The position numbers were made by a program, and so were the translations under genes. From the NCBI GenBank assembly GCA_947174385.1, contig CAMWIU010000001.1, positions 1 to 52,078 on the forward strand: DNA of 52,078 bases, written 5' to 3'. The stretch is from an uncultured Treponema sp. GTDB lineage: Bacteria; Spirochaetota; Spirochaetia; Treponematales; Treponemataceae. Shown here in pieces: positions 4,649 through 46,618 of this stretch. Every line of letters starts with the position of its first letter. Position 1 is the stretch's first letter. A model generated the notes under the pieces. The model saw only the letters and a list, made by a program, of their open reading frames with translations, was not told the origin of the DNA and did not search any database.

Positions 4649-4732
4649 ATTGCGAGTAAAAAGCATCGCAAAATGGCGCGTTTCGTCTTTGCGATGCTTT
4701 TCTTTTTTCCCATCTTGTGTTATATTTTCAAA

Positions 4733-5881
4733 ATGAAATTCAAACCAAAAATTTTCGTGCCGATTTTTCTTCTCGTGGCACTCGGCGGATATTTTTTTTA
4801 TTCTGAATTCGCGTCCGCGAAAATTCAAGAAATTCCGTATTCGGAATTTTTCAAAAATGTCGAAGAAAAGAAAATTTCCTCGGCGGAAATTTCCGAAAGC
4901 GAAATTATTTTTACTGATTCGCTCGGAAAAAAATTTAAAACGAAAAATCCTGAATCGCCTTTACTGAATGAATTTCTTTTAAAGAACGATGTCGATGTGA
5001 AAACGCAAAAAAATTTTTCGCAAATTGTTTCGCTTGTGCTGGACATAATTTTCTACGCAATTTTTTTTGGCGCGGCGATTTTCGCATTTCGAAAATTCAT
5101 CTCGCCAAATTCTTTCAAAGTTGTTCGTCGCACTGGCGTGAAATTCAGCGACGTAATCGGAATGGATTCTCTCAAGCGCGACACAGTTCAAATTATGCAA
5201 ATTATGAAATCGCCCGAAAAATTCGCAAAGCGCGGAATCCGAATGCCGAAAGGGATTTTGCTTGAAGGCGCGCCCGGAAACGGCAAGACACTTTTTGCGC
5301 GCGCTTTGGCCGGCGAAGCAAGCGTGAATTTCATTCCTGCAAAGGCCACGGATTTTGAAAGCATGTTCATGGCGATTGGACCTGCGAAAGTGAAAATGCT
5401 TTTTCGCAAGGCGCGGCGTTGCGCTCCGTGCATAGTTTTCATCGACGAGTTCGACGGAATAGGAACGCGCAGAAATTATTCTGGAAGCGCGATCGAAACT
5501 GAAAACACGAGAATCGTCACCGCGCTTTTGAACGAGCTCGACGGATTTGAAACGAACTCGGGCGTTCTTGTGATTGCCGCCACGAACAGCGTTCGCGCGC
5601 TCGACGAGGCTTTAATTCGGCCGGGCAGATTTGACGCGATTTTTTCCGTTCCATTTCCTGATGAAACATCTCGCGAAGAATTGGTGAAAAAATATTCCGC
5701 AAAAAAAAATCCGTCCGCCGAATGCACGGCACAAAAATTGGCGGCAATGTTCAACGGATTTTCGTGCGCAAAAATCGAAAGCGTTTTAAACAAGGCGGCT
5801 TTGATTGCCGCGCAAAATTCCCGCGAAGAATTTTCGCTTGACGATGTGCGCTCGGCAATTTCAGCTTTGGCTCGAGGATGA
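4733..5881 (+). CDS. FtsH-like membrane AAA+ ATPase lacking the M41 protease domain
   Basis: TM-extracellular-TM architecture, Walker A GAPGNGKT, Walker B IVFIDE, ALIRPGRFD; ends after the AAA lid, no HEXXH. Confidence 0.8.
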   Translation: MKFKPKIFVPIFLLVALGGYFFYSEFASAKIQEIPYSEFFKNVEEKKISSAEISESEIIFTDSLGKKFKTKNPESPLLNEFLLKNDVDVKTQKNFSQIVSLVLDIIFYAIFFGAAIFAFRKFISPNSFKVVRRTGVKFSDVIGMDSLKRDTVQIMQIMKSPEKFAKRGIRMPKGILLEGAPGNGKTLFARALAGEASVNFIPAKATDFESMFMAIGPAKVKMLFRKARRCAPCIVFIDEFDGIGTRRNYSGSAIETENTRIVTALLNELDGFETNSGVLVIAATNSVRALDEALIRPGRFDAIFSVPFPDETSREELVKKYSAKKNPSAECTAQKLAAMFNGFSCAKIESVLNKAALIAAQNSREEFSLDDVRSAISALARG

Positions 5882-6816
5882 AAATGTCGCAAGAAAAACA
5901 TCGCGCCAAAAATAATCGAACTCTCACGCTTTCCGAAAACGAAAAAAAATTTTATGCCGAACAAATCGTTCAAGAATTGCGACAATTTTCTGCGAAAGAA
6001 ATTTTGGACAAAATAATTTGCGCCGATTTATTTTCCGCGATGGAATTTCTTCCTGAAAAATTTGTAGATCTTTTGATAATCGATCCGCCGTACAATTTAA
6101 CAAAAAATTTCGGCGCGATGAAATTTTCCAAAATCAGCGATTCTTCGTACTGCGAATATTTGGAATCGTGGCTTCCAAAAATTTTGCGCGTTCTCAAACC
6201 AACGGCGAGCGTCTACGTTTGCTGCGATTGGCAAAGCAGCGCGGATTTGTATTTCGTCCTCAAAAAATATTTGCGCGTGCGAAATCGAATCACTTGGCAG
6301 CGCGAAAAAGGGAGGGGCGCAAAAAGCAATTGGAAAAATTCTTGCGAGGACATTTTTTTTGCGACGGCGAGCGACGAATATTTTTTTGATGTGGATGCCG
6401 TGAAATTGAAACGAGCCGTGCTCGCACCGTACAGACAAAACGGAATGCCAAAAGATTGGAATGAAAGCGACGGAAAAAAATTCCGCATGACGCATCCTGG
6501 AAATTTCTGGGACGACATTTCAATTCCGTTTTGGTCGATGCCGGAAAACACCGATCATCCCACGCAAAAAAGCGAAAAGCTTTTTGCCAAATTGATTTTG
6601 GCAAGTTCGCCCGTGGACGCAGTTGTGTTCGATCCATTTTTGGGTTCTGGAACAAGCGCGGTGGTGGCAAAAAAACTCGGCCGCCATTTTTGTGGCATCG
6701 AAAAAAATTTGGAATATTGTCTTTGGGCGCAAAAACGCCTCGACTTGGCAGAACACGAAAAAAAAATCCAAGGCTACGAAGACGGCGTTTTTTGGGAACG
6801 AAATTCCGGAAAGTAA
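5878..6816 (+). CDS. Orphan beta-class amino (m6A/m4C) DNA methyltransferase
   Basis: DPPY catalytic motif before HPTQK and FDPFLGSG SAM-binding motif; ATGA overlap with the upstream gene. Confidence 0.88.
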   Translation: MKMSQEKHRAKNNRTLTLSENEKKFYAEQIVQELRQFSAKEILDKIICADLFSAMEFLPEKFVDLLIIDPPYNLTKNFGAMKFSKISDSSYCEYLESWLPKILRVLKPTASVYVCCDWQSSADLYFVLKKYLRVRNRITWQREKGRGAKSNWKNSCEDIFFATASDEYFFDVDAVKLKRAVLAPYRQNGMPKDWNESDGKKFRMTHPGNFWDDISIPFWSMPENTDHPTQKSEKLFAKLILASSPVDAVVFDPFLGSGTSAVVAKKLGRHFCGIEKNLEYCLWAQKRLDLAEHEKKIQGYEDGVFWERNSGK

Positions 6817-6958
6817 AATCATTCGCAAAAAGGCTCACGGCGTTCCAAAAAAGGCGGCATTTGAAAATGCGCTTTGTAAAATCTTGCGCGGACGTTTCAC
6901 AAAGCGCGGCACAATTTGCCAAAAATGTGGCATTTTTTTCAATACTCTTTCCGAGCGA

Positions 6959-6987
6959 TTGACACGCGCGAATATATATTGTAGACT
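6959..6987 (+). promoter_or_regulatory. Sigma70 promoter of the repeat lipoprotein gene
   Basis: TTGACA-17 nt-TAGACT, then GGAGG SD before ATG 7028. Confidence 0.7.
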
Positions 6988-11947: not shown

Positions 11948-12023
11948 ATTTCCCCCAAATTGAAAATAAAAGTATGCGCAAGTTGTGCGACGTTTTATCA
12001 TAACTCCTTGATTTTCAAAAATT

Positions 12024-12950
12024 TCAAAGTGCGCCCGTGAGTTTTGCCATCAAACTCATTCGCGCGTACATTCCGAATTTCACTTGCTTGAAATATGCCG
12101 CGCGTGGATCGGAATCCACCTCGTAGGAAATTTCGTTCACGCGAGGAAGCGGATGCAAAACGATCATGTCTTTTTTCGCGCGGCGCATTTTTTCCTTGTC
12201 CAAAATGTAGCTGTCCTTCAAGCGAATGTAATCCTGCTCGTTGAAAAATCGCTCTTTTTGAACGCGCGTCATATAAAGAATGTCGGCCTTGTCAATCACA
12301 TCTTCCATCCGCTCGGCGCATTCATATTCAATGCCGGCGGGCTTGAGAACATCTTCGACCATATATTCTGGAATCGCAAGTTCCTTCGGGCTTACGAAAA
12401 TGAATCGATTTTTCGGATAGCGGCACATCGCCTGAGTGAGCGAATGAACTGTCCTTCCAAAGCGCAAGTCGCCGACGCAGCAAATCGTCATTCCTTCAAG
12501 CCCGCCCTTGAGCTGGCGAATCGTGAGCAAATCGGTGAGCGTCTGCGTGGGATGAAAATGTCCGCCGTCGCCCGCGTTGATTATCGGGCACGCCGAATAT
12601 TCGCTCGCCAAAAGCGCGGCACCTTCCTTGGGACTTCGAATGGCGATCACATCGGCATAACTTGAAACCACGCGAATCGTGTCGGCGAGAATTTCGCCCT
12701 TCGTCGTGGAAGTGTACGAAGCGTCGGCAAAGCCCTCCACGCTTCCTCCAAGTCGCAGCATCGCCGCTTCGAACGAAAGCCTCGTCCTTGTGCTCGGCTC
12801 AAAAAAAAGTGCCGCAAGAATTTTCCCGCGGCACACTTCTTTAAATGAATTCGGATCAACAATAATTTGTTCTGCCAGTTCGCAGATTTCGTCGATTTCC
12901 AAAACGGACAAATCAGATATTTGAATAACGTGACGACCTTTCAGCGACAA
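12024..12950 (-). CDS. pyrB: Aspartate carbamoyltransferase catalytic subunit
   Basis: [33 protein letters not shown]; TTG start with AAGGAG SD. Confidence 0.95.
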
Positions 12951-13198
12951 TTTTATGCACTCCTTATAAATTTTTGAAATTATATCACGAAGCGCGAAAA
13001 GTTTCAAGCGAAATTCGCTTTCTTTTCACATTCGCAATTTTTGGACAAAGTTGGGAGAGAGCGAATTTTTTTCCAACGAAAATCAACATACCTTGACGCA
13101 TTCGCAACGAAGTTTCCGATGGAGCATCGGAATTTGAAATGCTCCGCACGAATCAATTCAATTGCAACAAAATTTTTTTTGTGTTAAAATATTTTAAT

Positions 13199-14023
13199 AT
13201 GAGTTTTCTGAAATTTCAGGACGTGAATTTTTCCTACCCCCCGCTTGAAGGCGATGTTGACGAAGACGGCAAGCAAATTGTGCCGCCTGTTGTTTTTGAC
13301 CATTTTTCTGCGGAACTGCCTGCGGGCTTCGTGAGCCTTGTCGGGCCGAATGGTTCGGGCAAATCCACTTTTATGCTTTTGGCGGCAGGCAGGATTCTTC
13401 CAGCCGAAGGCAAGGTGGAACTTTTTGGCAAAGACACACGGAGGCTTTCGCAAGAAGAGCGCGACGAGCGAGCGTCATACATTTACCAAAATATGGAACT
13501 TGAAACGGAAGACGAATGCGGCGCGCTTTTACAATTCGTCTACAAGAATGGACTTTTTGGCGGCGCGGGACGCGGAATCAGAAATCCGGAAAAAGATTTT
13601 TTGGACGAAGTGAAAGAAGTTTTCGAAGTGGAATCGCTCGCGCAAAAAAAATTCAATGCGCTTTCCAAAGGCGAGCTGCAAAGAATGCTCGTGGCGTTTT
13701 CGATTTTGTACGGATCGCGTTCGGTTTTTATGGACGAACCTTTTTTCGCGATGGAAGACAAGCACAAGCATGCGGCGTTGCAATATTTGAAGGAATATTC
13801 TGCCGCCACTTGCGTTTCAATTTACATTTCAATGCACGAACTTGACCTCACGCGAAAGTACGCCGACACGGTGATGCTTTTTTATCCGAATCACGACATT
13901 GATTTGGGCACGGCGGAAGAAGTGCTCACCGACGCAGATTTGGAAAAGGCTTATGGCGTTCCCGTGGCGATGTTGAAACACAGCGAAGCACTCACGCGCG
14001 AAATTATTGCTGGAAGAATGTAG
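13199..14023 (+). CDS. Orphan ABC transporter ATP-binding protein (iron-chelate/ECF-like)
   Basis: GPNGSGKS, LSKGELQR, MDEP, SMHEL, C-terminal EEVLTDADLEKAYGV. Confidence 0.8.
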   Translation: MSFLKFQDVNFSYPPLEGDVDEDGKQIVPPVVFDHFSAELPAGFVSLVGPNGSGKSTFMLLAAGRILPAEGKVELFGKDTRRLSQEERDERASYIYQNMELETEDECGALLQFVYKNGLFGGAGRGIRNPEKDFLDEVKEVFEVESLAQKKFNALSKGELQRMLVAFSILYGSRSVFMDEPFFAMEDKHKHAALQYLKEYSAATCVSIYISMHELDLTRKYADTVMLFYPNHDIDLGTAEEVLTDADLEKAYGVPVAMLKHSEALTREIIAGRM

Positions 14024-14028
14024 GAAAC

Positions 14029-15144
14029 CTAAATCTTCAAAACGCCATTTTCCAGCGCGGTGAAACTCGTGCCGTCTTTGTAATTTATCACGATCGTCGG
14101 AAGGCGCACAACGCCGTCAAGGTGAATCAGCGAAGGCGCGTCATTATCATAATTTTCGCCAATCGCAAAATGGCAAGTTTTGAACGCCTTTTCGTCCTCC
14201 AACATATTTCCTGTAATCCTTGCGGCGGGATTCAAGCCGATTCCGAGTTCGCCGATATTGCGCGCGTTTCGCTTGTAAATCTCGCCTTGACCTTGCGGAA
14301 GCTCGCCTTTTTTTTCCATTTGAAGCGAACGCGATTCGGCATCGGAAATCGTTTTTAAAAGCCGTTTGGCTTCCGCGCCGCCTGAAATTTCCGTTGCGAA
14401 TCCGCCTTGAACTTTTACCGAAATCGGAGTTTGCAAAATTGAATCGCCGTCCGCAAAAGTCATAGAGCCGTCAAAAACTATCGTGCCGTTGCAGCCACTT
14501 TCTTTTCCGTCGCCGACAATTGGGCTTATGAAAACTTCGCCGGCAGGAATGTTGCCGCCGCTTCCAGCTTTGGAAAAATCACCGTTGTCGTCCATTGGCT
14601 TGCGTCCTCCCACAGGAACAAGAATGTCCGTTCCGCCCGCGCTCGTAACGCGCACGCTCACGGCATCAGAAAGTTTTTCGCCCAATTTTTTGCAACGCTC
14701 GGCAAGTTCGGCATAATCAATGTTCACAGTGCGCTCGAACATATCGTCCGTGAGGCCAGGCGCCCACACCGCGCGGATGGATTTTTTTCCGTCCAAAAGA
14801 TAGTCGAAAATATGATCGTATTTTTTTCCAGAATCGTCAATGTATGGCGCGGTCGTCGCTTCGGAATCTTTTCCAAGTTTCAGGCTTGAAATCGAGATGA
14901 CGACATCGGGCGCGGATTTTATCGCCGCGATTACGGCAGGCTCGGCATTGTCAAAAGAAGTCTTTTCGCTTTGATAAATCAGCACGGGCAAAGATTCTGC
15001 TTTGTCGCAAGTCGTGTACAAATCCTGCGCGATGTCGGACATGGCAGGATTTGCGATTATCAAAACTCGCTCGCCTTTTTTTATTTTGAGAACATTTTTT
15101 ACGACGGTCTCCGCGCTCGTTTGATTTTTTTTCAGATTAAACAT
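14029..15144 (-). CDS. M29/aminopeptidase T-like metallopeptidase
   Basis: GNIPAGEVF, NIGELGIGLN, EDEK...CHFAIG, HLDGV. Confidence 0.75.
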   Translation of the reverse strand: MFNLKKNQTSAETVVKNVLKIKKGERVLIIANPAMSDIAQDLYTTCDKAESLPVLIYQSEKTSFDNAEPAVIAAIKSAPDVVISISSLKLGKDSEATTAPYIDDSGKKYDHIFDYLLDGKKSIRAVWAPGLTDDMFERTVNIDYAELAERCKKLGEKLSDAVSVRVTSAGGTDILVPVGGRKPMDDNGDFSKAGSGGNIPAGEVFISPIVGDGKESGCNGTIVFDGSMTFADGDSILQTPISVKVQGGFATEISGGAEAKRLLKTISDAESRSLQMEKKGELPQGQGEIYKRNARNIGELGIGLNPAARITGNMLEDEKAFKTCHFAIGENYDNDAPSLIHLDGVVRLPTIVINYKDGTSFTALENGVLKI

Positions 15145-15240
15145 AATGAAAAATTATAATGAAATTTGAATTTAAATTCAATGTTTATCCCACGCTTTTG
15201 CTCCCGCTGGGGCTAGGTCGCAAGCCTTCGACTTGCTTAC

Positions 15241-15279
15241 CGAGATTTATTTGCTCGCAGAGCGAGCAAATAAATCTCG
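15241..15279. repeat. Perfect 18-bp inverted repeat between divergent genes
   Basis: CGAGATTTATTTGCTCGC-AGA-GCGAGCAAATAAATCTCG. Confidence 0.85.
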
Positions 15280-15350
15280 CGGTTTTCTTCGCAGGCGCTT
15301 CTGAAAAAAACGCACTTGCTTTTTCCGCATTTTTTTGCTACAATTTCCAA

Positions 15351-15854
15351 ATGGAACAAAACGAAAATTTATGTCCTTGCGGCTCGGGAAAAATTTACGG
15401 CGAATGCTGCGAGCCAATCATCAAAGGAACGAAAAAAGCGGCGACTGCGGAAGAATTGATGCGCGCGCGCTATTCATCTTATGTCAAACAAGAAATCGAC
15501 TTCATCATCAACACTTGCGAATCTTCGGAACAAATCGCGCAAATCGATCGCAAGGCCACGGAAGATTGGAGTCGCAATTCCACTTGGCACGGCTTGCGAA
15601 TTTTGCGCACGGAAAAAGGCACGCCTTCCGACACCGAAGGCATCGTGGAATTTGAAGCCGTCTACACGCAAAAGCATATTCGCGAAACTCACCACGAAAT
15701 GGCGTACTTCAAAAAAATCGACGGCGAATGGGCATATTCAACCGGCGAACTCAAAGTGGAAACAATCGTGCGCGAAGGTCGAAAAATCGGGCGCAACGAA
15801 CCGTGTCCGTGCGGAAGCGGAAAAAAATACAAAAATTGCTGCGGCAAAAATTAA
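15351..15854 (+). CDS. YchJ/UPF0225 SEC-C motif protein
   Basis: N-terminal [25 protein letters not shown]-terminal [19 protein letters not shown]. Confidence 0.88.
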
Positions 15855-20236: not shown

Positions 20237-20277
20237 AGTGGATAACTCCATAAAAGTGAAATGAATTTATAGTAATA

Positions 20278-20541: not shown

Positions 20542-21831
20542 CTAGCGATTTTCTTTTTTGGGGCGCACCAAAAACACGCAGGCGCACAACGCGACAACGT
20601 ACAAAACGCAGGTTACATAAAGAACGGTTTGGTAACCCGTCGGATTCATCGCCACGCCATTAACTTCAATTTGCTCGCCGAAATGATTTACAATCCAAGT
20701 CGCCATTTGATTTCCTGTAAGGCCCGCGACTGCCCAAGCCGAAAGCATAATTCCATAAATCGCGCTTATGTTTCCCATTCCGTAACGGTCGGAAAGCAAA
20801 GTCGGCATATTTGAAAATCCGCCGCCATATCCCGCGTTCACCACAAAAAGCAAAATCAAAACCAATGCAAGCGCGATTTTGTTTTCGCCGCGATTTGCGA
20901 TTCCGCCAGTAAAAATTACGAGCGCAGTGAATACAATCGAAAGCAGCAAAATCAATTTGAAAATCGTGTTGCGATCTTTCAGTTTGTCCGACCACGCGGA
21001 AAATCCCAGCCGTCCGCCGGCGTTGAAAATCGCTGTAATCGAAGCGAGAATTCCGGCATAAGACGCAAGTCCCACGCATTTTATGATAACTTTTTCCTGC
21101 GAAATGAGCGCGAGTCCGCAAGTGATATTGATGTAGAACATAATCCAAATGCCGGCGAACATAATCGGATTTGTTTTGATTACATCGAAGGCTTTGTTTT
21201 TATTTTCCGCGCCGGTCGGCTCTTGCCACGTCGAAGGCTTTTTCAAAAGCAAATGTCCCGCGAACATCATCACAAAATAAACTGCCGCAAGAATATAGAA
21301 CATGTTGTAAATTCCAATCGAAGACGAATTTTCCATTCGCTGCATAATTGGCGAAGCAATTGCTTTTGCCGCGCCGAATCCCATCACCGAAAGTCCTGTT
21401 CCCAAACCTTTGCGATCTTCAAACCAAAGCATCAAAGTTTTTATTGGCGAAAGATAGCCCGTTCCCAAGCCAACGCCCATAACAAGTCCGTAGGAAATGT
21501 AGATACCGATGAGAGAAACAAGGCTGCCTTTGTGCGCGCCGCCATATTGAATGAAAAATCCAGTGCCAGCCATGCCCGCCGCAAAACAAATCGTGGCAAT
21601 TAAGGAAGACTTGCGGATGTCCTTTTCGACGACATTGCCCAAAAACGCCGCGCTCATTCCCAAAAAGAAAATCGCGAAGCTGAACGCCCATTCCACCGCG
21701 CCCTTGGAAAATCCGATATAGCTGGCGATTTCTTGGCTGAAAATCGACCAGCAATAAACTGTACCAATTGAACAATGCAAAAGCAACGCGGGAATTGCGC
21801 CCCGCGTCCATTTATTTTCTGACAAATTCAT
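20542..21831 (-). CDS. MFS transporter, oxalate:formate antiporter (OFA) family
   Basis: IGTVYCWSIF, GLGTGYLSP, WFEDRKGLGTG, FNAGGRLGFSAWSD, YGGGFS; about 12 TM segments. Confidence 0.88.
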   Translation of the reverse strand: MNLSENKWTRGAIPALLLHCSIGTVYCWSIFSQEIASYIGFSKGAVEWAFSFAIFFLGMSAAFLGNVVEKDIRKSSLIATICFAAGMAGTGFFIQYGGAHKGSLVSLIGIYISYGLVMGVGLGTGYLSPIKTLMLWFEDRKGLGTGLSVMGFGAAKAIASPIMQRMENSSSIGIYNMFYILAAVYFVMMFAGHLLLKKPSTWQEPTGAENKNKAFDVIKTNPIMFAGIWIMFYINITCGLALISQEKVIIKCVGLASYAGILASITAIFNAGGRLGFSAWSDKLKDRNTIFKLILLLSIVFTALVIFTGGIANRGENKIALALVLILLFVVNAGYGGGFSNMPTLLSDRYGMGNISAIYGIMLSAWAVAGLTGNQMATWIVNHFGEQIEVNGVAMNPTGYQTVLYVTCVLYVVALCACVFLVRPKKENR

Positions 21832-21937
21832 TTTTAAATTGTAGAACAAAAATCAATTTTTTTCAAGTATTTTTTTCGACATTTCAAGCAAGGAAATTCA
21901 AATTGCGCTCAAAAAAAATTTGTGCTATACTGAAAAA

Positions 21938-26777: not shown

Positions 26778-26841
26778 GATTGAATTATCACACAAATCAA
26801 CGTGCAATGTCAAGTTGGGAATTTGAATTAAAATTATTAGA

Positions 26842-27050: not shown

Positions 27051-28223
27051 TTATTTCACAGCGTTTTTCAGCGCGGCGACTTTGTCGGTTTTTTCCCAAC
27101 TGAAATCTTTTTTTCCGAAATGCCCGTAGGCGGCTGTTGGCGAATAAATCGGTCGCTTCAATTTCAGCGCGTCCACAATTCCTGCGGGCGTGCAATCGAA
27201 AATTTCTTTTACCGCATCGGCAATCTTGCAATCAGGAATCTTTCCTGTGCCGAATGTTTCGACCATAATCGAAACTGGAAAAGGAACTCCGATCGCATAA
27301 GAAAGCTGCACTTCCGCGCGCGTCGCCAATTTCGCGGCGACAATATTTTTGGCAATGTAACGCGCCATGTAAGCCGCCGAACGATCCACTTTGCTGGGAT
27401 CTTTTCCGCTGAACGCGCCGCCTCCATGCCGTCCCATTCCGCCGTAAGTGTCAACGATGATTTTTCGTCCAGTGAGGCCGCTGTCTCCATGCGGACCGCC
27501 AATCACAAACTGGCCGGTGGGATTTATAAAATATTTTGTCTTTTTGTCCAAAAGTCCCGTCGGCTCAAGAACCGGCTTAATGACGCGCTCAATCAAATCG
27601 GATTTGATTTGCGCGTATTTCACATTCGGATTATGTTGGTGCGAAAGCACGACCGTATCGATGTGAACGGGCTTGTGTCCTTCGTATTCCAGCGTAACTT
27701 GCGCCTTGGCATCGGGACGCATCCATTCTATTTCTTTTGAATGACGCAATTGCGCTGCGTTCAACAAAATTTTGTGCGAGAACATAACAGGCGCGGGCAT
27801 AAGTTCGGGCGTTTCGTCGCACGCAAAGCCGAACATCATTCCCTGATCGCCGGCTCCCTGCTGCCCCTTGAATTCTTTCAAGCCGCTTCCCACAACGCCT
27901 TGATTTATATCGGGCGATTGCGTGTGAACGACATTCACCACCGACATCGAATCAGCATCCAAACCGAATGCGGCGTCCGTGTATCCGATTTTTCGCGCGG
28001 TATCGCGGGCGATTTTTTGGATGTCAAGCTCTTTGAATTTGGTGGAAATTTCTCCGCCAACAAGGACCATTCCTGTCGTCGTAAAGCACTCGCAGGCAAC
28101 ATGACTTTCAGGATCCTTAGCAAGACAAGCGTCCAAGACTGCATCGGAAATCTGGTCGCAGATTTTGTCCGGATGACCTTCGCTGACAGATTCCGAGGTG
28201 AACAAACAATGTTCGTTTGTCAT
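27051..28223 (-). CDS. metK: S-adenosylmethionine synthetase
   Basis: [49 protein letters not shown]; AAGGAG SD. Confidence 0.98.
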
Positions 28224-28326
28224 AGCAACTCCTTAAAAATAAAATAGAATAATTTTGCGACAAGCCAATGTGTAGCGAGCGCTCGGCGTGCCGCAACAAA
28301 AAATCGTCAAATCCGTATAAAAAGAC

Positions 28327-28739: not shown

Positions 28740-28742
28740 CGC

Positions 28743-32568: not shown

Positions 32569-32629
32569 GAAAAAACACAAAGCAATTCATTGCTTTATGT
32601 GATATAATTTTTATTCAAGGAGTTAAAAA

Positions 32630-34204
32630 ATGACGATGGATGTTCTTGCAAAAATCATTGCGTTCGTTCTCTACCTTGCAATGATGGTTTTGGTCGGGCT
32701 GCGCGCCGCGAACAAAAACAACAATGCTTCCGACTTTTTTTTGGGCGGACGCAAAATTGGGCCGTGGGTCACAGCATTGAGTGCGGAGGCTTCCGATTCT
32801 TCGGCTTGGCTTTTGATGGGCTTGCCCGGGCTTTGCTATTTGGGCGGATTCAAGGAAACTTTTTGGACAGCGATCGGACTTATTGTCGGCACTTATTTGG
32901 CGTGGCTTTTTGTCGCGAAGCCTTTGCGAAAATGCTCGATTGCGTTCGGCGATTCGATTACAATTCCGGAATTTTTGACGAACCGCTTCAACGACAAAAC
33001 TCACATTCTTTCGATTGTTTCGGTTTTTTTTATTGTCGTGTTTTTCACGATTTACACGGCGTCGGGATTTGTGGCTTGCGCGAAATTGTTCCGCTCGGTT
33101 TTCGGCTTGAATTGGAACTTTGGACTTTTTATCGGATTCGTGATAATTCTTTCGTACACAATCATGGGCGGCTACCGCGCCGTTTGCACCACGGACTTCA
33201 TTCAAGGAATGTTGATTTTCGTCGCGTTCGTCGTCTCGTCCGTAATCGTAATTTTCGCGTTGGGCGGAATTTCAAGTTCGATTGAACAAGTCCAGCAATT
33301 TTCTGCGCGCGCACTGAACGGAGATTTCGGGCGCAAAATGCTCGACAATTTTACGGCGAACAAATCGTTCAGCCCGATGTCGGCGATTTCGGCGTTCGCA
33401 TGGTGCTTGGGATATTTCGGAATGCCTCACATCATCGTGCGTTTCATGGGAATCCGCTCAAACAAGGAAATCAAAACTGCGCGAAGAATCGGAATCACAT
33501 GGATGATAATTTCGTACATCGGAACTTTCATCATCGGAACTCTCGGAACTGCGTATTTGCTGAACCACGGAATTCTTTTGGGCGCGAATCCCGAAGAAAC
33601 GATTTTGGAAGGCGTGAAAGTTTTGGGCGTGGGAACGCAGGAAGCGGTTTTCAGCGAATCGATAAACAGAATGTATCCTGCCTTCATCGCGGGAATTTTC
33701 CTTTGCGCGATTTTGGCGGCGGCGATGTCCACCGCGGACAGCCAGCTTCTTTCGGCTTCAAGCGCGATCGGACAGGACATTTTCAAGGGCATCATAAAAA
33801 AGGACGCTTCCGAAAAAACGGTTTTGGTCGTGAGTCGCGTTTCAGTTTTGGCGATTGCGATTGTCGGAGTTTTGCTCGCGCTCAATCCCAACAGCTCGAT
33901 TTTTGGTTTGGTGAGCTACGCATGGGCTGGATTCGGCGGAACATTCGGGCCGCTAGTTTTGCTCGCGCTTTATTGGAAAGGCACGACGGCAAAAGGCGCG
34001 ATTGCTGGACTCGTTTGCGGCGGCGCGGCAGTGGTCGCATGGCACAATCTTTCCGCCGACGTTCATCCGATTTTCGGCCTTTACGAAATTTTGCCCGCGT
34101 TTGTCATCTGCCTTGTCGTCGCCATCGTCGTGAGCCTTTTGGACAAAGACAAGGACGAAACAATTCTCGCGAAATTCGACGAGTATAAAAAAATGGCGGA
34201 CTAA
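32630..34204 (+). CDS. putP: Sodium/proline symporter (SSS family)
   Basis: DFFLGGR, ALSAEASDSSAWLLMGLPG, GYFGMPHI, AAAMSTADSQLL, AWAGFG. Confidence 0.88.
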   Translation: MTMDVLAKIIAFVLYLAMMVLVGLRAANKNNNASDFFLGGRKIGPWVTALSAEASDSSAWLLMGLPGLCYLGGFKETFWTAIGLIVGTYLAWLFVAKPLRKCSIAFGDSITIPEFLTNRFNDKTHILSIVSVFFIVVFFTIYTASGFVACAKLFRSVFGLNWNFGLFIGFVIILSYTIMGGYRAVCTTDFIQGMLIFVAFVVSSVIVIFALGGISSSIEQVQQFSARALNGDFGRKMLDNFTANKSFSPMSAISAFAWCLGYFGMPHIIVRFMGIRSNKEIKTARRIGITWMIISYIGTFIIGTLGTAYLLNHGILLGANPEETILEGVKVLGVGTQEAVFSESINRMYPAFIAGIFLCAILAAAMSTADSQLLSASSAIGQDIFKGIIKKDASEKTVLVVSRVSVLAIAIVGVLLALNPNSSIFGLVSYAWAGFGGTFGPLVLLALYWKGTTAKGAIAGLVCGGAAVVAWHNLSADVHPIFGLYEILPAFVICLVVAIVVSLLDKDKDETILAKFDEYKKMAD

Positions 34205-34483
34205 TTTTGCTACCTCGCGCGAATGTTTGTATCGCAAATCAGAGATTTGCTTACGAGTTTTGACGCAGGCTGAATGTTTGCGCCAAAACTCGCGGATATT
34301 TTCTCATCACAAATTTAATTCACTTTGAAAATCGAGTCTTGAATTTTTTTGGCTCGGACGAAACGCCACCTTTTCAAGCCCGCGCAGAATTTATTCGCGG
34401 ATTTGTGTTGAAGTTGACGACTGTTGTTGGAATGCGTTAGAGGCTTCCTTTACTTTGTTTTAAAAATCCGCTATAATTTCGCT

Positions 34484-35881
34484 ATGAGAATTTCTTCTGG
34501 CCCGCACGAACTTTCGGGCAGCATAACAGTTCCCGGCTCAAAAAGCCACACGATTCGCGCGCTCATTTTGTCCGCTTTGGCGGAAGGCACGTCGCAGATT
34601 TTGAATCCTCTTGGCAGCGCGGATTGCTTGAGCGCGGCCGAAGCCGTTCCGCTTATAGGCGCGAAAATCGAATTCACTTCGCCGCAAAAATGGCTCGTTT
34701 TTGGCGCGGGAAAAAATGCGCATCTTCCGAGCGATGTCGTGAACGTCGGAAATTCAGGCTCGCTTTTATATTTTCTTTCGCCTGTGTGCGCCACGTTTGA
34801 AGGCTGGAGCGTTTTCACTGGCGACCAAAGCATTCGGCGAAGGCCTGTTTTTCATGTCGTGGATGTGATTCGGCAAATGGGCGCGATGGCGGAATGCGCG
34901 ATTCCGCAAAGCAAATGTTGCCCCCTCCTTATAAAAGGTCCTGCCGACGGAAAAAAAATCGTTCGCACGGAAGGCTCGATTTCAAGCCAGTACATCACGG
35001 GAATGATGCTCGCGGCGTTGCGGATGAAAGACACGCTTCGAATTGAATTGAGCGATCCGAAAGAAACTCCGTATTTGACGATGACAAAAATTTGGCTTGA
35101 ATCTTTCGGCGTGAAAGTGGAAATGTCGAGCGACTTCAAGCAGATTTCAGTTACCCCTCCCACAGAATTGCTCGCGCACGATTGCGTCATTCCAAGCGAT
35201 TGGGAAGGAGTGGCGTTTCCGCTCGTCGCCGCAATTTTGACGAACAGCGAAATCAAAATCGAAAACGTGGATTTTTCGGGAAGCCAAGGCGACGACAAAA
35301 TTGTCGATGTTTTGAAATCGCTCGGCGCGGACATCGAAGAGAACAAATCGCATTCTTCGCTCATCGTTCGCGGCGGAAAATTTTCAACATTAAAAAATCG
35401 CGGAAGGCTTTCCACGGAAAATCTTCCGGAAAAAATTCTGCGCGTTGCAATTTCGGATTTTCCCGACGCGATTTGCGCGCTCGCTGTGGCGGCGTGTTTT
35501 GCGGAAGGAACTGTGATTTTCGAGGATGCTTCGGTTTGCCGGCGCAAGGAAACGGACAGGATAAAAGTTTTGAAAGACGAATTGCAAAAACTCGGCGCGG
35601 ATTTGGAAGACGGCGTGGACGAGCGCGGGCGCGATTTTTTGGCAGTGCACGGAAAAAGTCCGTTCAATGCCGACGGCTCTGCGAATCCGAAATTCAATTT
35701 GCACGGCGGAACAGTGGAAAGTTACGACGACCACAGAGTTGCGATGGCGGCAGCTTGCATGGGATTGGCCTTGCCCGCGCACGAAAAAATCATCGTGAAC
35801 AATGCCGAATGCGCCGCAGTTTCATTCCCGAATTTTTACGACGCGATGAACAAACTCGGCTGCGGCTTTGAAGAATGCTAG
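34484..35881 (+). CDS. aroA: 3-phosphoshikimate 1-carboxyvinyltransferase
   Basis: PGSKSHTIR, VGNSGS, SSQY, KETDRI, DDHRVAM, SFPNF. Confidence 0.93.
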   Translation: MRISSGPHELSGSITVPGSKSHTIRALILSALAEGTSQILNPLGSADCLSAAEAVPLIGAKIEFTSPQKWLVFGAGKNAHLPSDVVNVGNSGSLLYFLSPVCATFEGWSVFTGDQSIRRRPVFHVVDVIRQMGAMAECAIPQSKCCPLLIKGPADGKKIVRTEGSISSQYITGMMLAALRMKDTLRIELSDPKETPYLTMTKIWLESFGVKVEMSSDFKQISVTPPTELLAHDCVIPSDWEGVAFPLVAAILTNSEIKIENVDFSGSQGDDKIVDVLKSLGADIEENKSHSSLIVRGGKFSTLKNRGRLSTENLPEKILRVAISDFPDAICALAVAACFAEGTVIFEDASVCRRKETDRIKVLKDELQKLGADLEDGVDERGRDFLAVHGKSPFNADGSANPKFNLHGGTVESYDDHRVAMAAACMGLALPAHEKIIVNNAECAAVSFPNFYDAMNKLGCGFEEC

Positions 35882-35948: not shown

Positions 35949-37277
35949 CTATTCCTCGAACAACTTTCTGCATTCCAAATAAAATCTTTTTTCCGAAGCC
36001 TCGCCCATCGAAAAGCTTTTTCGCGGGAGCGGCCCGCGTTCGCAAATCGTTTTGAAAAAACTTTCTTTGGCGACAGGCGGAAGCAAAATTCCCACGGCGG
36101 ATTTTTTTTCGACGAGAGCGAAAATTTCTTGCGCGCCATGAATATAGTCGATTGAGGCTTCGTTTCGCGATTTGAGAAATTCGTCCAGCGCGGGCTGCAA
36201 ATGGCTCACAGCCAAATCTTTTATTTGCGTTTCAAGCGTGACGAATTTTTTCTCGCCGTTTTCCATAAAAGCAAATCCGAAATTCGCCGTGGAATTTTTC
36301 ACGCAGCGTTCAAGGCTCGCCGTGTCCGCGAATTCCTTTTTTTCGCCGCCCAATTTTTTTTGCAGGAATTCAATCATCGCGTTTGCATCGGCATTGAAAA
36401 TCGCGCGATGAATCGGCTCGAAAGTCAAGCCTTCGTCATAAAGATTCACGATTTCCAAAAGCGCGTAGCGCACAGGACTTTTCGCGATTTCGTCATCGCT
36501 CGCGCCGCTTTGCAAAAGATTTTTTTTGTGCTCTTCCCAAACTGATTTCGCGGTGGCAAGCGAATGGTTTCCGTCGCCCACGGCAAAAAGGAACGTGCCT
36601 TTTTCGTCCGTGGATTCGGCATAAAGTTTTTCGAGCGCGGTTTTCACGAAATCCAAATCCGCTTCGTCTTTCACAGCCCAGCCTTTTATGCTTCCGCTTT
36701 GCTGCATCAAGCCGCCTGAATAAATCGGATGTTCGGAGCGAGACTTTATTTTTTTGCCAAGCGATTCAATCAAAATGTGATTGGCATCGTTCGCCAAAAG
36801 CATTATGTGCGGAGTTTCGAGCGGTGCGTTTCGGCGGATTTCCATGCGCGGCGGAATGCGATCCAAAATTGTCGCTTCGGTCGCGCGGACGAGCGCATTT
36901 GAAAAAGGCTTCCATTCGTAGCAGTCCAAATCCAGCGCGACGACAAGACCTTTTCTTGTGCGGCCGTAAGAAGTCGTGCGCTCGACATAGACCATCTGCT
37001 TTTGCGCCTCGGCAAAAACGCCGCCGCGCAAATATTCTTTCATCGTGGATTTTATCTTTGCAATGCGCTCGGATTTGTCCGCATCATTCAAATAGGCTTC
37101 GGGCAAAATCAAGTTCAGCGTGGAATTTTTTCCCGCGCAAATTTTTTCGGCTTTCGTCCAATATTCGCGATCCTGCGTGTACTGGTCGCACGCCACCACC
37201 GCCCAAGTTTCAGTTTCAATTTTTTTCGGCAAAATAATTTCCGGAACGGCGATTCCGAATTTTTCAAAATTTTTCAT
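35949..37277 (-). CDS. DUF1015 family protein
   Basis: WAVVACDQYT, VRATEAT, FAVGDGNHSLATAK, LPRKSFSMG. Confidence 0.85.
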   Translation of the reverse strand: MKNFEKFGIAVPEIILPKKIETETWAVVACDQYTQDREYWTKAEKICAGKNSTLNLILPEAYLNDADKSERIAKIKSTMKEYLRGGVFAEAQKQMVYVERTTSYGRTRKGLVVALDLDCYEWKPFSNALVRATEATILDRIPPRMEIRRNAPLETPHIMLLANDANHILIESLGKKIKSRSEHPIYSGGLMQQSGSIKGWAVKDEADLDFVKTALEKLYAESTDEKGTFLFAVGDGNHSLATAKSVWEEHKKNLLQSGASDDEIAKSPVRYALLEIVNLYDEGLTFEPIHRAIFNADANAMIEFLQKKLGGEKKEFADTASLERCVKNSTANFGFAFMENGEKKFVTLETQIKDLAVSHLQPALDEFLKSRNEASIDYIHGAQEIFALVEKKSAVGILLPPVAKESFFKTICERGPLPRKSFSMGEASEKRFYLECRKLFEE

Positions 37278-37309
37278 GGCGAAATTATATCACGGATTTT
37301 CATTTTGCG

Positions 37310-37633
37310 CTACATCACTCGGCTCAAAATCATAAACAAAATTGTTCCGCCAAAAATCGAAATCATTGAATTTTTTTTCCAAAGATGAAGCAAAACCACG
37401 GCAGCGAGCGCGATGAAATTCGGCGCGCCAAACGGTCGCACGGCAAAATCCAAATCTTTGAAACAATAGACAAGAAGAATCGCGATGATAAGCGGCGGCA
37501 AAGATTTTTCCACGAACTTGAGCGCGGCAGGAACTTCGCGCTTTGAAAAAATCAAAAATGGAAACGCTCGATAAAAAATCAAAATCAACGCCGTAAAAAT
37601 TATTGTCTGGACAACTACATTCAGCGAACTCAT
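37310..37633 (-). CDS. azlD: Branched-chain amino-acid exporter small subunit (AzlD family)
   Basis: RAFPFLIF, LPPLIIAILLVYC, LHLWKKN...SIFGGT. Confidence 0.75.
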   Translation of the reverse strand: MSSLNVVVQTIIFTALILIFYRAFPFLIFSKREVPAALKFVEKSLPPLIIAILLVYCFKDLDFAVRPFGAPNFIALAAVVLLHLWKKNSMISIFGGTILFMILSRVM

Positions 37634-43496: not shown

Positions 43497-45089
43497 CTAT
43501 TCTTTTTTCACTTTTTTTATTATAACATAGTTTTTAAGAATTTCAAAGAAAACTTTCCAAAGAGGAAATTGCAATTCAAGCATTGAAGTCGTTTCCCTAT
43601 TCCTCGAAGAAAACATAATGCTTTTCAAATTCGTAATAATTTCGCTCGAAGAACGTTTCGCGTCCTGCAAAAAGTCACCCAAATCGGAATGAAGCACATT
43701 CAACAAAGTGGCGGTTTTTTGAATGATTTCTTTCACCTCGCTGTTGGCGGAATCGATAAGCGCGGTGAGCTTTCTTCCAAAATCCGAATCCTTGTGACTG
43801 TCGTTGATGTAACTTTTTATCACGCCCACGCTATATCTTTGACCGTCACCAAACGCGCTCTCAAATTGCGAAATCAAATTCGTGCTGTCATTGAGCGAAT
43901 AAACCAATTGCGAAAAATTGCTTTTCTTCGTGGGATTCGTGAAAAGACCTTCCACAACTATGTCGTTCAAAAGATTGCGCAAACTTTCGCCATAATAAAT
44001 CTTGAGAAAAGTTTTCAGGATTTGCAGCGGCACAATCCACATAAAATTTGAAGGCGAATTGTTGGCGATGATTTCCATAGTTTCCTTGGAATAGCCGATG
44101 AGCGTTTCCATTTTTCCGTCCGGAAAAAGTTCCGACAATTCCTGCTTGACTTGAGAATTTTTCAGCTCGTTGCGAATGTGAAGTTCGTCGGACTGAAATT
44201 TTTCCTGAAGCTTTTCGGCGAATTTTTTGCAGACATTTTCTTCGTAGCTCGCTTTTTGCGGAACGAAATTCGGATCGCCTTTTGAAAGCCGAATAATCTT
44301 GAACAAAGTTTCGGCATCGAGCGGATTTTTGAGCACGGCGCGAATCCTGCGCAGATTTTGCAAAAGTTCCTTTTTCGTGCGCAAATCATTTTCTTTATCG
44401 TTCAAAAGCTGATTTAGAGCCAAAATCGCGTTTCCCATCGGCATCGTAACTTGAAAATCTGCGGTGAGATAATAAAGATCCATCAAAATATTTTCGAACG
44501 TAGTAAGCGGCAGCGGCTGATATTCAGGAACAAAATCCTCTTCGTCGTGATGCTTGGCAAACCTTGCGTCAAACAATTGAAGCGGCGTGATGAAATTGAA
44601 ATGGCACAAATCCGAAAGTTGCTTGAGATTTGCAATCACATCGTCCATTTTGGAAAATTGCGGCTCTTTCAAATCCGCCACCACTTTTTCCAAATTGTGC
44701 TTTTGCAATTCAAACGCCTTGTGTTCGCTCATTTCGGAATCGCCGCTCAAGGCTTGCAGGCGATTTTCATAGGAAAGCGATTCAAGGATTTTCTTGTCCT
44801 CGTCGCTGTAGCCCGTGATAATCAGTTCCTGCTCAAAACTTCGGTTGCGCTTCACGTCTCCGCTTGTTATCGTGTTGTCGAGGATTTTCGAAATCGGACG
44901 CAAATTCATATAAAGAATTCGCAACGCTTCGGCAAAATTCGGCTGCAAAAGATCGCCTTTGTAAATTCCCGAAGGATGCATGCGAAGCTCGGATTCAAGT
45001 TTTCGCAATTTGTTTCGCTTTTGCACTTCAGGCGAATTGCTATGGAAAATGTTTTCGAAAAAATTTTTTATCGCCTGGATTATCGACAT
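43497..45089 (-). CDS. Spirochaete conserved protein (DUF5312-like)
   Basis: Long helical ORF with host-like codons; family recalled from memory, not searched. Confidence 0.6.
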   Translation of the reverse strand: MSIIQAIKNFFENIFHSNSPEVQKRNKLRKLESELRMHPSGIYKGDLLQPNFAEALRILYMNLRPISKILDNTITSGDVKRNRSFEQELIITGYSDEDKKILESLSYENRLQALSGDSEMSEHKAFELQKHNLEKVVADLKEPQFSKMDDVIANLKQLSDLCHFNFITPLQLFDARFAKHHDEEDFVPEYQPLPLTTFENILMDLYYLTADFQVTMPMGNAILALNQLLNDKENDLRTKKELLQNLRRIRAVLKNPLDAETLFKIIRLSKGDPNFVPQKASYEENVCKKFAEKLQEKFQSDELHIRNELKNSQVKQELSELFPDGKMETLIGYSKETMEIIANNSPSNFMWIVPLQILKTFLKIYYGESLRNLLNDIVVEGLFTNPTKKSNFSQLVYSLNDSTNLISQFESAFGDGQRYSVGVIKSYINDSHKDSDFGRKLTALIDSANSEVKEIIQKTATLLNVLHSDLGDFLQDAKRSSSEIITNLKSIMFSSRNRETTSMLELQFPLWKVFFEILKNYVIIKKVKKE

Positions 45090-45182
45090 AATTTTAATTG
45101 TACCATAAAAACGCGCCTCGTGCAACTGCTTTTTGAAAAATCCGAATTCATCAAATAAAATGTAGCGATTGCGAAAAACACG

Positions 45183-46184
45183 TCAAGTCGCAGTTCCGCA
45201 ATGAATCCAAGTGAGTTCGTGCTTGTTGTAATTCAAGTGGACGACGCGGCTGTTTTCGATCGCGGCGAATTTTTCCACCGCGTCCCAATTTATTCCGCCT
45301 TGCATTTTTATCGTGCAAATCATATTTTTCGCAAGGCCGCTTTCAAGCCATTCTTGCGTCCATTCGAAAAGCCGCTCAGGATAGCAAATCACGTCGCTGA
45401 AAACCCAATCGCATTTTCCGATTTGCTCGGGCGAAAGCGTGAACGCATCGTGTGCCAAAAATTCCACGCATGGATTTTTCATCAAACGCGCGTCCAATTC
45501 CGCGCGATCCACGGCAAGAACGCTCGCGCCCAAATTCGCCAAAACCCAAGTCCATCCGCCAGGCGCGGCTCCGCATTCAAAACATCGCGTTCCTTCTCCT
45601 GGAAATTCCACGCCGAAAAAATTGTTCGCAAGCACCAAGGCTTCCTGCAATTTCAAATACGCGCGGCTCGGCGGCTCAACGTGATTTTCCTTGAAGACGA
45701 TTTTTCCCGCCGGCAAAAAGCTCGAAGTTTTCGCGCTCGCCAAAATCATGTGCTCGTCCAAAAGCGTCCAAAGCCCGATCGGGCTTCGAGGAATTTTCAC
45801 GGGAAAATATCGCGCCGAAAAATTTATGTAAGGCAATTTTTTTTGAATCAATTCCGCACGGCGAAAAAACTGAAATTGATAAGAAGCCCAATTCCGCTGA
45901 ATGCCTTTCAGCGCGGCGGCCGCTTCGCCGATGGATTCAAAGCGCAGCAAAAAAGGCTCGAGCATTTGATCTCGCGCGAAAAAAATATTTTTTTTCAAAT
46001 CGCAATTTTCGCAATTTTGCGCCGCAGAATTTTCCGGAAAATTTTTAAAATAAATCAACTCGCCAAAATTTTCGCAAGGCAAATCGATTTTCAATCTTTC
46101 GGCAAGTTCGGATTTTAGAAAATTTTCCGCGCCCTCGAACGGCAAAAGCGCGCGCCCCGAAATTTTTTCTACAGAAGCTGGCAT
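45183..46184 (-). CDS. RlmM/FtsJ-like SAM-dependent RNA methyltransferase
   Basis: PPSRAYLKLQEA, CGAAPGGWTW, DWVFSDV, HNKHE-like YNKHELT. Confidence 0.8.
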   Translation of the reverse strand: MPASVEKISGRALLPFEGAENFLKSELAERLKIDLPCENFGELIYFKNFPENSAAQNCENCDLKKNIFFARDQMLEPFLLRFESIGEAAAALKGIQRNWASYQFQFFRRAELIQKKLPYINFSARYFPVKIPRSPIGLWTLLDEHMILASAKTSSFLPAGKIVFKENHVEPPSRAYLKLQEALVLANNFFGVEFPGEGTRCFECGAAPGGWTWVLANLGASVLAVDRAELDARLMKNPCVEFLAHDAFTLSPEQIGKCDWVFSDVICYPERLFEWTQEWLESGLAKNMICTIKMQGGINWDAVEKFAAIENSRVVHLNYNKHELTWIHCGTAT

Positions 46185-46552
46185 TGAGAATCTACGATTT
46201 GATTTTGGGATTTTTTTTCGTCGCCGAAATTCTTGTCCAGGCGCGAAACATATTTTGTGAATTTTTCGGAATCAGGCGAACGCAAAACGGACATTCCCAC
46301 GGAAGTTTTTCCGCTGTCTTCTTTTACCCAGGCAGGACAGCAAATCAAAGTGATGGAATCGTCCTCGCTGTCCGAAATCTGAAGCGCAACTTCATATTCG
46401 TCTTCAAGGCGGACAGTCACGGGCAGGTTATAAAATATTTTACAACCGTGCAAACTCACATCGAGCAAACTGCCGCTGAGAGGAGAAAGTTCTTTGCAAT
46501 GAACGCGCCCCAAAACTTCAAAGCGCGGATTCCGGCGTTTTTCCAAGCGCAT
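46169..46552 (-). CDS. Stand-alone PilZ-domain protein
   Basis: RxxxR (RRNPR) and DxSxxG (DVSLHG) motifs. Confidence 0.85.
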   Translation of the reverse strand: MRLEKRRNPRFEVLGRVHCKELSPLSGSLLDVSLHGCKIFYNLPVTVRLEDEYEVALQISDSEDDSITLICCPAWVKEDSGKTSVGMSVLRSPDSEKFTKYVSRLDKNFGDEKKSQNQIVDSQCQLL

Positions 46553-46618
46553 ACCAAATTATGCACGAAAATCAAAACAAAGTCAAGTGCGCAAAACGAA
46601 TTGCTTCGTTATGATATG

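What the first reader, a model, noticed from the sequence alone, without database searches (positions are those of the whole stretch)
4718..46586. Window-wide leaderless-mRNA gene class
Seen: at least 11 genes have a -10 hexamer ending 5-8 nt before the ATG and no Shine-Dalgarno. They are ftsH-like (TGt-TATATT 4721, ATG 4733), ABC ATPase (TTGCAA-17-TAAAAT, 13199), aminopeptidase (TTGAAT-17-TATAAT, 15144-), ychJ (TTGCTT-17-TACAAT, 15351), OFA (TTGAAA-17-TACAAT, 21831-), ATP-grasp (TTGCGC-17-TATACT, 21938), nth (TTGACA-18-GATAAT, 26777-), aroA (TTTACT-17-TATAAT, 34484), DUF1015 (TGa-TATAAT, 37277-), DUF5312-like (TTGCAC-17-TACAAT, 45089-) and pilZ (TTGACT-17-CATAAT, 46552-). By contrast metQ, pyrB, ppdK, metK, putP, fabV and the GH94 gene have clear SD leaders. 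Known: this spacing places +1 on or beside the A of AUG; leaderless mRNAs are best known from Actinobacteria, Deinococcus and archaea. Inference: this Treponema uses two initiation modes, leaderless for low-abundance or maintenance genes and SD-led for high-flux genes. It also means many ORF-track starts are over-extended.
Basis: partly seen in the sequence, partly recalled or inferred. Interest (0 to 1): 0.8.

Follow-up and report, generated by a model that had tools for sequence, protein, structure and literature searches.

The report
Leaderless-mRNA promoters in a Treponema
About one gene in seven of this uncultured Treponema has an ordinary promoter sitting so close to its start codon that the message is predicted to begin at the AUG itself; the pattern is real, but it is a known kind of gene start that was already predicted for Treponema in print.

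Summary
All 11 sites are in the sequence; 10 score as sigma70 promoters with a model trained without the window, and pilZ is weak. Genome-wide, TANNNT ends exactly 6 nt before ATG in 92 of 716 starts chosen without motifs (other gaps 4-27; shuffles at most 38). Of the 92, 49 carry TTG at a 17-nt spacer and 1 has an SD. The class is about 15% of genes (decoys about 2%) and 36% of divergently transcribed genes. It is conserved in 21 of 29 aroA orthologues, and the spike appears in 34 of 35 genomes of the family. Leaderless transcription is inferred; no start site was mapped. The split by abundance is a tendency: 6 of 199 leaderless-type versus 67 of 341 SD-led genes are in the top codon-bias decile, but PFK, SecA and AlaRS are leaderless-type. 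It is not new: GeneMarkS-2 (PMC6028130, Table S4) places 12 of 17 Treponema genomes in its leaderless group, Leptospira and Borrelia leaderless mRNAs are mapped, and this scan reported the same pattern in three other Treponema genomes.

The parts
4698..4735 (+). FtsH-like AAA ATPase gene: weak -35 (4698-4703), extended -10 TG-n-TATATT (4721-4726), 6 nt, ATG 4733
   Evidence: (log-odds 5.6)
13162..13201 (+). ABC ATPase: TTGCAA-17-TAAAAT (13185-13190), 8 nt, ATG 13199; possibly a 2-3 nt leader
   Evidence: (9.1)
15142..15181 (-). M29-like aminopeptidase: TTGAAT-17-TATAAT (15158-15153), 8 nt, ATG 15144; possibly a 2-3 nt leader
   Evidence: (6.2)
15316..15353 (+). ychJ (head of ychJ-rlmB): TTGCTT-17-TACAAT (15339-15344), 6 nt, ATG 15351
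   Evidence: (9.7)
21829..21866 (-). OFA-family MFS transporter: TTGAAA-17-TACAAT (21843-21838), 6 nt, ATG 21831
   Evidence: (10.0)
21903..21940 (+). ATP-grasp gene: TTGCGC-17-TATACT (21926-21931), 6 nt, ATG 21938; divergent from OFA, 107 nt between ATGs
   Evidence: (8.4)
26775..26813 (-). nth: TTGACA-18-GATAAT (26789-26784), 6 nt, ATG 26777
   Evidence: (4.1)
34449..34486 (+). aroA: TTTACT-17-TATAAT (34472-34477), 6 nt, ATG 34484
   Evidence: (8.8; 21 of 29 orthologues alike)
37275..37312 (-). DUF1015 gene: extended -10 TG-a-TATAAT (37289-37284), 6 nt, ATG 37277, poor -35
   Evidence: (7.7)
45087..45125 (-). DUF5312 gene: TTGCAC-17-TACAAT (45102-45097), 7 nt, ATG 45089
   Evidence: (8.7)
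46550..46586 (-). pilZ: TTGACT-17-CATAAT (46563-46558), 5 nt, ATG 46552; weak, doubtful member
   Evidence: (0.6)
   Evidence: posterior 0.49; 0.8
3640..3762 (+). contrast gene metQ: TTGACA-17-TATAAT well upstream, then AAGGAG and ATG 3760 (leadered, SD-led)
12948..12990 (-). contrast gene pyrB: TG-a-TATAAT, short leader with AAGGAG, TTG start at 12950
20234..20260 (-). contrast gene ppdK: GGAG SD, ATG 20236; 99th percentile of codon bias
28221..28245 (-). contrast gene metK: AAGGAG SD, ATG 28223; SD in 10 of 11 orthologues
32595..32632 (+). contrast gene putP: TG-a-TATAAT, about 15-nt leader with AAGGAG, ATG 32630
48021..48045 (-). contrast gene fabV: AGGAG SD, ATG 48023
51938..52020 (-). contrast gene GH94: TTGACA-17-TAGAAT upstream, GGAGG SD, ATG 51940

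Best explanation
About 15% of this Treponema's genes, nearly all heading transcription units, carry a sigma70-type -35/17-nt/-10 motif ending 5-8 nt before the start codon with no SD, so their mRNAs likely begin at or 1-3 nt before the AUG and would be translated as leaderless messages. Shown in sequence: the motif, its spacing, its exclusion of SD, its position at operon heads and its conservation. Inferred from known promoter geometry: +1 lies 7 bp after the -10 box, which is the A of ATG at gap 6, and the A again at gap 7 when the base before it is a pyrimidine. The gap-8 sites likely give 2-3 nt leaders. Inferred from other bacteria: a 70S ribosome with IF2 and initiator tRNA binds the 5' AUG directly. 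SD-led genes use the same promoter type further upstream. The most highly expressed genes appear to keep SD leaders; single genes switch mode between species.
For: Single-base spike at gap 6: 92 of 716, other gaps 4-27; shuffles max 38 and 25. Independent -35: TTG at spacer 17 in 49 of 92, 0-7 at other spacers, against 13 of 168 for TANNNT at gaps 12-20. Of 229 confident members, 161 have TTG at -35 and 120 an extended-10 TG (the model scores these positions, so this is descriptive). SD in 1 of 92 vs 327 of 624 (p=1e-25). Members by context: 130 of 358 divergent, 8 of 380 operon-internal. Pyrimidine just before ATG, outside the model: 161 of 219 vs 282 of 540 SD-led (p=5e-8); at gap 7 the 7th base is a purine in only 11 of 39. 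First 40 nt slightly less structured (median -3.3 vs -4.1 kcal/mol, p=3e-5). Nine of 23 divergent pairs of members have only 46-69 nt between ATGs; 16 SD/SD pairs have at least 127. Orthologues: aroA 21 of 29 (decoys 0-1), nth 10 of 20 (decoys 0), metK 0 of 11. Anti-SD intact in G031 and G354. TSS centred 7 bp after -10 across 49 species (PMC12641261).
Against: No transcript 5' end was seen: the four runs laid were contigs only. A second upstream promoter could also give a leadered message for some genes. pilZ and pheS score near zero. At gap 8 the 6th and 7th bases are often purines (18 and 14 of 24), so these are probably short-leader, not strictly leaderless. Gene starts come from my own gene finder, and 46% of genes have neither signal. 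The strict pattern shows no excess in families f8 and f20, so it is blind to other promoter styles. The MAG has no 16S 3' end.
Confidence: 0.88

Rival explanations
1. The TA-rich hexamer is a non-SD translation signal (S1-type enhancer) in a leadered mRNA, as in Bacteroidetes (GeneMarkS-2 group B), not a promoter.
For: These genes lack SD, and their upstream DNA is A/T-rich. Group B motifs lie at a similar distance from the start (PMC6028130).
Against: A TTG at exactly 17 nt spacer (49 of 92) and an extended-10 TG have no role in translation. Group B motifs occur before internal genes too; here 8 of 380 internal vs 130 of 358 divergent. Divergent pairs with 46-69 nt between ATGs leave little room for leaders.
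Confidence: 0.03
2. The promoters are real, but translation starts at a downstream codon, so the mRNAs have ordinary leaders and the abutting ATG is incidental.
For: Start codons were called by a simple coding model and are uncertain for many genes.
Against: The spike was found on starts chosen without upstream motifs. 28 of 29 aroA orthologues have ATG at the same aligned position. Family models begin within a few residues of the ATG for nth and ychJ. No spike before non-start ATGs.
Confidence: 0.04
3. The class is a dedicated translational regulon: ribosome- and RNA-maintenance genes are made leaderless so that they are translated selectively when ribosomes are stressed or immature.
For: After the fact, 9 of 54 annotated leaderless-type genes vs 0 of 46 SD-led operon heads encode RNA modification or processing enzymes (p=0.003). 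The ksgA/rsmA gene itself is leaderless-type.
Against: Retest with eight families chosen beforehand (six named in note, two added in the same turn; TGT not found): of 16 genes not seen before, only 2 are directly leaderless-type, the genome rate; 5 sit in units headed by one and 2 under SD heads. PFK, SecA, AlaRS, PurL and PurD are members. nth switches mode between species. Low-abundance enzymes drifting into the cheaper arrangement explain the pattern.
Confidence: 0.07
4. Chance matches in A/T-rich upstream DNA.
For: Upstream regions are about 62% A+T, and TANNNT is common.
Against: Shuffles, shifted decoys, non-start ATGs and the reversed pattern (97 vs 3) all fail to reproduce it.
Confidence: 0.01

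Closest known systems
GeneMarkS-2 group C genomes (Lomsadze et al. 2018, PMC6028130; passages and Supplemental Table S4 read)
   Same: Pribnow box about 10 nt from the start of operon-first genes, SD for other genes. The table lists Treponema, 12 of 17 genomes, with on average 29.7% of operon-first genes and 23.6% of all genes predicted leaderless; Spirochaetes 24 of 60.
   Different: A computational prediction given by genus only, not discussed in the main text (0 mentions of Treponema or Spiroch-). My estimate here is lower (about 15% of genes; 199 of 1,004 operon-first genes at posterior 0.8 or more) and adds the -35 box, start-base, conservation and codon-bias tests.
Leptospira interrogans leaderless mRNAs (PMC5243855; passages read)
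   Same: Spirochaete with about 440 mRNAs with leaders under 10 nt and 170-184 starting exactly at the start codon; energy genes under-represented.
   Different: Mapped by dRNA-seq; no sigma70 consensus was found there, whereas here it is a textbook -35/-10.
Borrelia burgdorferi leaderless mRNAs (PMC5314773; passages read)
   Same: Spirochaete with 85 mRNAs with leaders under 10 nt (about 19% of leaders analysed).
   Different: Mapped experimentally; only 29% of those have zero leader; the passage read notes that secondary and antisense starts lack a conserved -35.
TA-led genes of Zheng et al. 2011 (PMC3160421; passages read)
   Same: TANNNT about 12 bp before the start codon taken as leaderless; transcription and RNA-processing categories enriched, translation and motility depleted.
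   Different: Found in only 6 of 18 spirochaete genomes, at 1.8-6.9% of genes; Treponema not named in the main text or the one supplement held.
Caulobacter, Mycobacterium and Haloferax leaderless initiation rules (PMC8459731; passages read)
   Same: AUG preference (238 of 251 here), little 5' structure, few very short leaders.
   Different: Measured there with reporters and ribosome profiling; only inferred here.

Membership tests
Bacterial leaderless mRNA | Transcript 5' end on or within a few nt of the start codon | not testable with these tools
   Only assembled contigs were available; inferred from promoter geometry.
Bacterial leaderless mRNA | -10 box ending about 6 nt before the start codon, above background | tested here: met
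   92 of 716 at gap 6; shuffles max 38; decoys about 2%.
Bacterial leaderless mRNA | No Shine-Dalgarno before the start | tested here: met
   1 of 92 vs 327 of 624; 0 of 11 in the window.
Bacterial leaderless mRNA | Gene is first in its transcription unit | tested here: met
   130 of 358 divergent vs 8 of 380 tightly co-directional genes.
Bacterial leaderless mRNA | Strong AUG preference and little 5' structure | tested here: inconclusive
   238 of 251 ATG, but SD-led genes are also 93% ATG and the model favours ATG; the folding difference is small though significant.
Bacterial leaderless mRNA | Translation starts at the 5' AUG by 70S ribosomes, stimulated by IF2 | not testable with these tools
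   From PMC8459731; no data for Treponema.
GeneMarkS-2 group C genome | Substantial share of operon-first genes with abutting Pribnow box; SD used by other genes | tested here: met
   199 of 1,004 operon-first genes confident, 36% of divergent genes; SD class 39%. The program itself was not available.
GeneMarkS-2 group B (non-SD RBS) | Same non-SD motif before both first and internal genes; SD rare | tested here: not met
   Motif nearly absent before internal genes; SD common.

The most novel reading that the evidence does not exclude
In Treponema the leaderless class is a translational regulon: ksgA/rsmA, other rRNA/tRNA-modifying enzymes, Pth, repair and wall-remodelling enzymes are kept leaderless so that the cell favours their translation when ribosomes are immature or stressed, a feedback loop from ribosome state to ribosome maintenance.
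Probability: 0.07. Interest if true: 0.6.

Novelty: new member of a known kind. Interest (0 to 1): 0.2.

Why it matters
Practical value: start codons in gut Treponema MAGs need a dual promoter/SD model, and the class hands over a clean sigma70 promoter matrix for an uncultured lineage. The level predicted (about 15% of genes) exceeds the 2011 estimate for spirochaetes and approaches that of Actinobacteria. No genome-wide start-site map of a Treponema turned up in my searches, so the prediction is untested and cheap to test. It would not surprise a specialist in translation initiation.

Tried and rejected
Sequencing runs: 12 listed, all Logan contigs. I laid 4 on 12000-31990: no start or end signal, relatives at about 90-95% identity, and depth cannot rank genes, so nothing is taken from it. 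Rfam: no match in the window, so no riboswitch leader. 16S 3' end: absent from the MAG; found in 2 of 5 other genomes tried. No standard gene finder was on the machine, so I wrote one. The RNA-modification regulon idea was not confirmed by the retest. Over-extension of ORF starts is not specific to the class. The strict pattern gives no excess in families f8 and f20; this says nothing about leaderless mRNAs there, since other promoter styles escape it. Rows dropped: 890 of 1,606 genes with no single near-optimal ATG; genes scoring under 30, including pilZ; nth loci L043 (too short), L051 and L053-L076 (not Treponema by title); 224 of the 301 genomes were not run in the gap control. One supplementary file of PMC6028130 could not be searched, and bioRxiv supplements are closed; species-level lists may lie there.
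Full report
Setting. The window is contig C1 of a 2.30-Mb, 180-contig genome, 87% complete. The nearest nth relatives are titled Treponema sp. (92-98%), and T. parvum is at 76%. Gene names agree with NCBIfam and Pfam. Rfam finds nothing in the window.

Observation. All 11 ATGs and hexamers are present. Gaps between the -10 end and the ATG are 6 nt (seven genes), 7 (DUF5312), 8 (ABC ATPase, aminopeptidase) and 5 (pilZ). With a promoter model trained on other contigs, ten score 4.1-10.0 and pilZ 0.6. The seven contrast genes score -5.5 to -12 and all carry an SD word. metQ, pyrB, putP and GH94 show the same promoter type further upstream.

Is it chance? I built a self-trained gene finder (1,940 genes) and took the 716 of 1,606 genes with exactly one near-optimal ATG, chosen without looking upstream. 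TANNNT ends 6 nt before the ATG in 92; other gaps from 0 to 40 give 4-27. Shuffling the last 20 nt gives mean 26.1, max 38 (200 runs), or 15.3, max 25 (50 dinucleotide runs). There is no spike before 10,611 non-start intergenic ATGs or 9,478 internal ATGs. A strict pattern finds 97 sites against 3 for the reversed pattern.

Is it a promoter? Among the 92, TTG sits at a 17-nt spacer in 49 and at any other spacer from 12 to 22 in 0-7. Gaps 5, 7 and 8 give 26 of 63; gaps 12-20 give 13 of 168. An SD word occurs in 1 of 92 against 327 of 624. A mixture model puts 15.2% of 1,687 genes in the class (shifted decoys 1.6-2.6%), 39% in the SD class and 46% in neither; 251 genes pass posterior 0.5, with gaps 5/6/7/8 in 16/159/47/29 (the matrix was seeded on the 92, so that part is circular). 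Members make up 130 of 358 divergent genes, 77 of 580 with a same-strand gap over 60 nt, 19 of 194 at 21-60 nt, 8 of 380 at 20 nt or less, and 20 of 175 at contig ends. Of 1,022 operon-first genes, 324 have a strong promoter within 200 nt: 136 at gaps 5-8, 17 at 9-14, 96 at 15-60 and 75 beyond. Nine of 23 divergent member pairs have only 46-69 nt between their ATGs; 16 SD/SD pairs have at least 127.

Where +1 falls (inferred). Across 49 species the start is centred 7 bp after the -10 box and prefers a pyrimidine-purine step (PMC12641261, passages). At gap 6 that base is the A of ATG. The base before ATG, which the model does not score, is a pyrimidine in 161 of 219 members against 282 of 540 SD-led genes. 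At gap 7 the 7th base is a purine in only 11 of 39, which would push +1 onto the A. At gap 8 the 6th and 7th bases are purines in 18 and 14 of 24, so 2-3 nt leaders are likely. The first 40 nt fold slightly less (median -3.3 vs -4.1 kcal/mol). Direct 70S/IF2 initiation, AUG preference and inhibition by short leaders are taken from PMC8459731 (passages). No start site was observed: public runs were contigs only. The anti-SD is intact in 2 of 5 genomes tried, one of the same genus, so SD-led initiation is available.

Conservation. 28 of 29 aroA orthologues have ATG at the same aligned position, and 21 of 29 score above 2 for an abutting promoter (decoys 0-1). nth gives 10 of 20, with 5 others carrying an SD word; metK gives 0 of 11, with SD in 10. 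Kin are not independent, and L012 and L014 are nearly the same upstream. I ran the strict pattern on 301 genomes of the phylum and a gap 10-15 control on 77 of them plus G354. The ratio is 6.8 here, the highest of 35 in family f1 (median 2.9; 34 of 35 at 2 or more). It is 4-11 in several other families (f6, f9-f12, f56), 1.4-2.6 in f25, 1.0-1.9 in f20 and 0.6-1.2 in f8.

Which genes. Codon bias was scored against 27 genes of the ribosomal-protein superoperon region. Among operon-first genes, 6 of 199 members and 67 of 341 SD-led genes are in the top decile (p=4e-9; AUC 0.67), but the member median (-0.043) matches genes with neither signal (-0.040). Pfam on 76 of 229 members and 58 of 341 SD-led heads, from 20 regions picked for member density: members include 9 RNA modification or processing enzymes of 54 annotated, Pth, an xth-like nuclease, wall enzymes, regulators and sigma-54, but also PFK, SecA, AlaRS, PurL and PurD. 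SD-led heads (46 annotated) include GDH, iPGM, an IDH/IPMDH-family dehydrogenase, GOGAT, flagellin, HPr and binding proteins, and no RNA-modifying enzyme. That sorting was by hand and after the fact. A retest on 16 further RNA-modification genes gave 2 direct members, 1 weak SD and 13 with neither; 5 lie in units headed by a member. So the split is a tendency, and a regulon is not shown. Eight of the 11 longest-ORF starts are over-extended, but genome-wide 85 of 229 members and 257 of 577 SD-led genes are.

What is known. GeneMarkS-2 defines group C as exactly this architecture, and its Table S4 lists 12 of 17 Treponema genomes (29.7% of operon-first genes, 23.6% of all genes) and 24 of 60 Spirochaetes (PMC6028130). 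Zheng 2011 found it in 6 of 18 spirochaetes at 3.9%. Leptospira (about 440 leaders under 10 nt) and Borrelia (85) have mapped cases. Searches for a Treponema start-site map or leaderless study found none (listings only). This scan reported the same pattern in three other Treponema genomes (unchecked AI notes, seen after my own analysis).

Verdict. Real, genome-wide and family-wide; most likely true leaderless and very-short-leader mRNAs from ordinary sigma70 promoters (0.88). It is a new member of a known kind, already predicted for the genus. Interest 0.2.

Noticed in passing
window 4733-5881 +: The FtsH-like protein (382 aa) matches only positions 4-402 of the 598-position FtsH model, so the C-terminal protease part is missing; its stop overlaps the start of an adenine DNA methyltransferase gene (5878-6816).
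   Followed up: no
window 7089-9902 +: 937-aa ORF after the methyltransferase with no NCBIfam or Pfam hit at the thresholds used; possibly its restriction partner.
   Followed up: no
window 30359-32568 +: DNA cytosine methyltransferase overlapping an HNH endonuclease gene: a likely restriction-modification pair between a DUF711 gene and putP.
   Followed up: no
G000:C9 about 1600-2400 +: ksgA/rsmA is itself leaderless-type (TTGCAA-17-TATAAT, GTG start) and heads a unit with a RluA-family gene; rsmI on C2 near 30620 is too.
   Followed up: partly
G000:C28:1346-1394, C29:19240-19286, C35:1380-1434, C120:4258-4318 and five more: Back-to-back leaderless-type genes whose two promoters overlap within 46-69 nt; compact bidirectional promoters.
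   Followed up: partly
G000, gap-5 class (11 genes listed): Most have G/A-A-A-T-T between the -10 box and the start codon; small sample.
   Followed up: no
G000:C105:594-1310 and C167:1398-2132: Two miaA-like genes, two Dus genes and nine RluA-family genes; no TGT found in this 87%-complete genome.
   Followed up: no
G039, G251, G284, G302: Other spirochaete genomes with a strong gap-6 excess (165, 52, 123, 117 sites; ratios 4.1-11.1), as high as or above this genome.
   Followed up: partly
L042, L043: Records titled Bacteroidaceae and Desulfovibrionaceae carry a 70%-identical nth, and L042's nth and metK upstream regions are nearly or fully identical to Treponema locus L040; the titles may be wrong.
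   Followed up: no
L091:102-1565 +: A leaderless-type gene encodes a protein with a Pfam Pallilysin beta-barrel domain.
   Followed up: no
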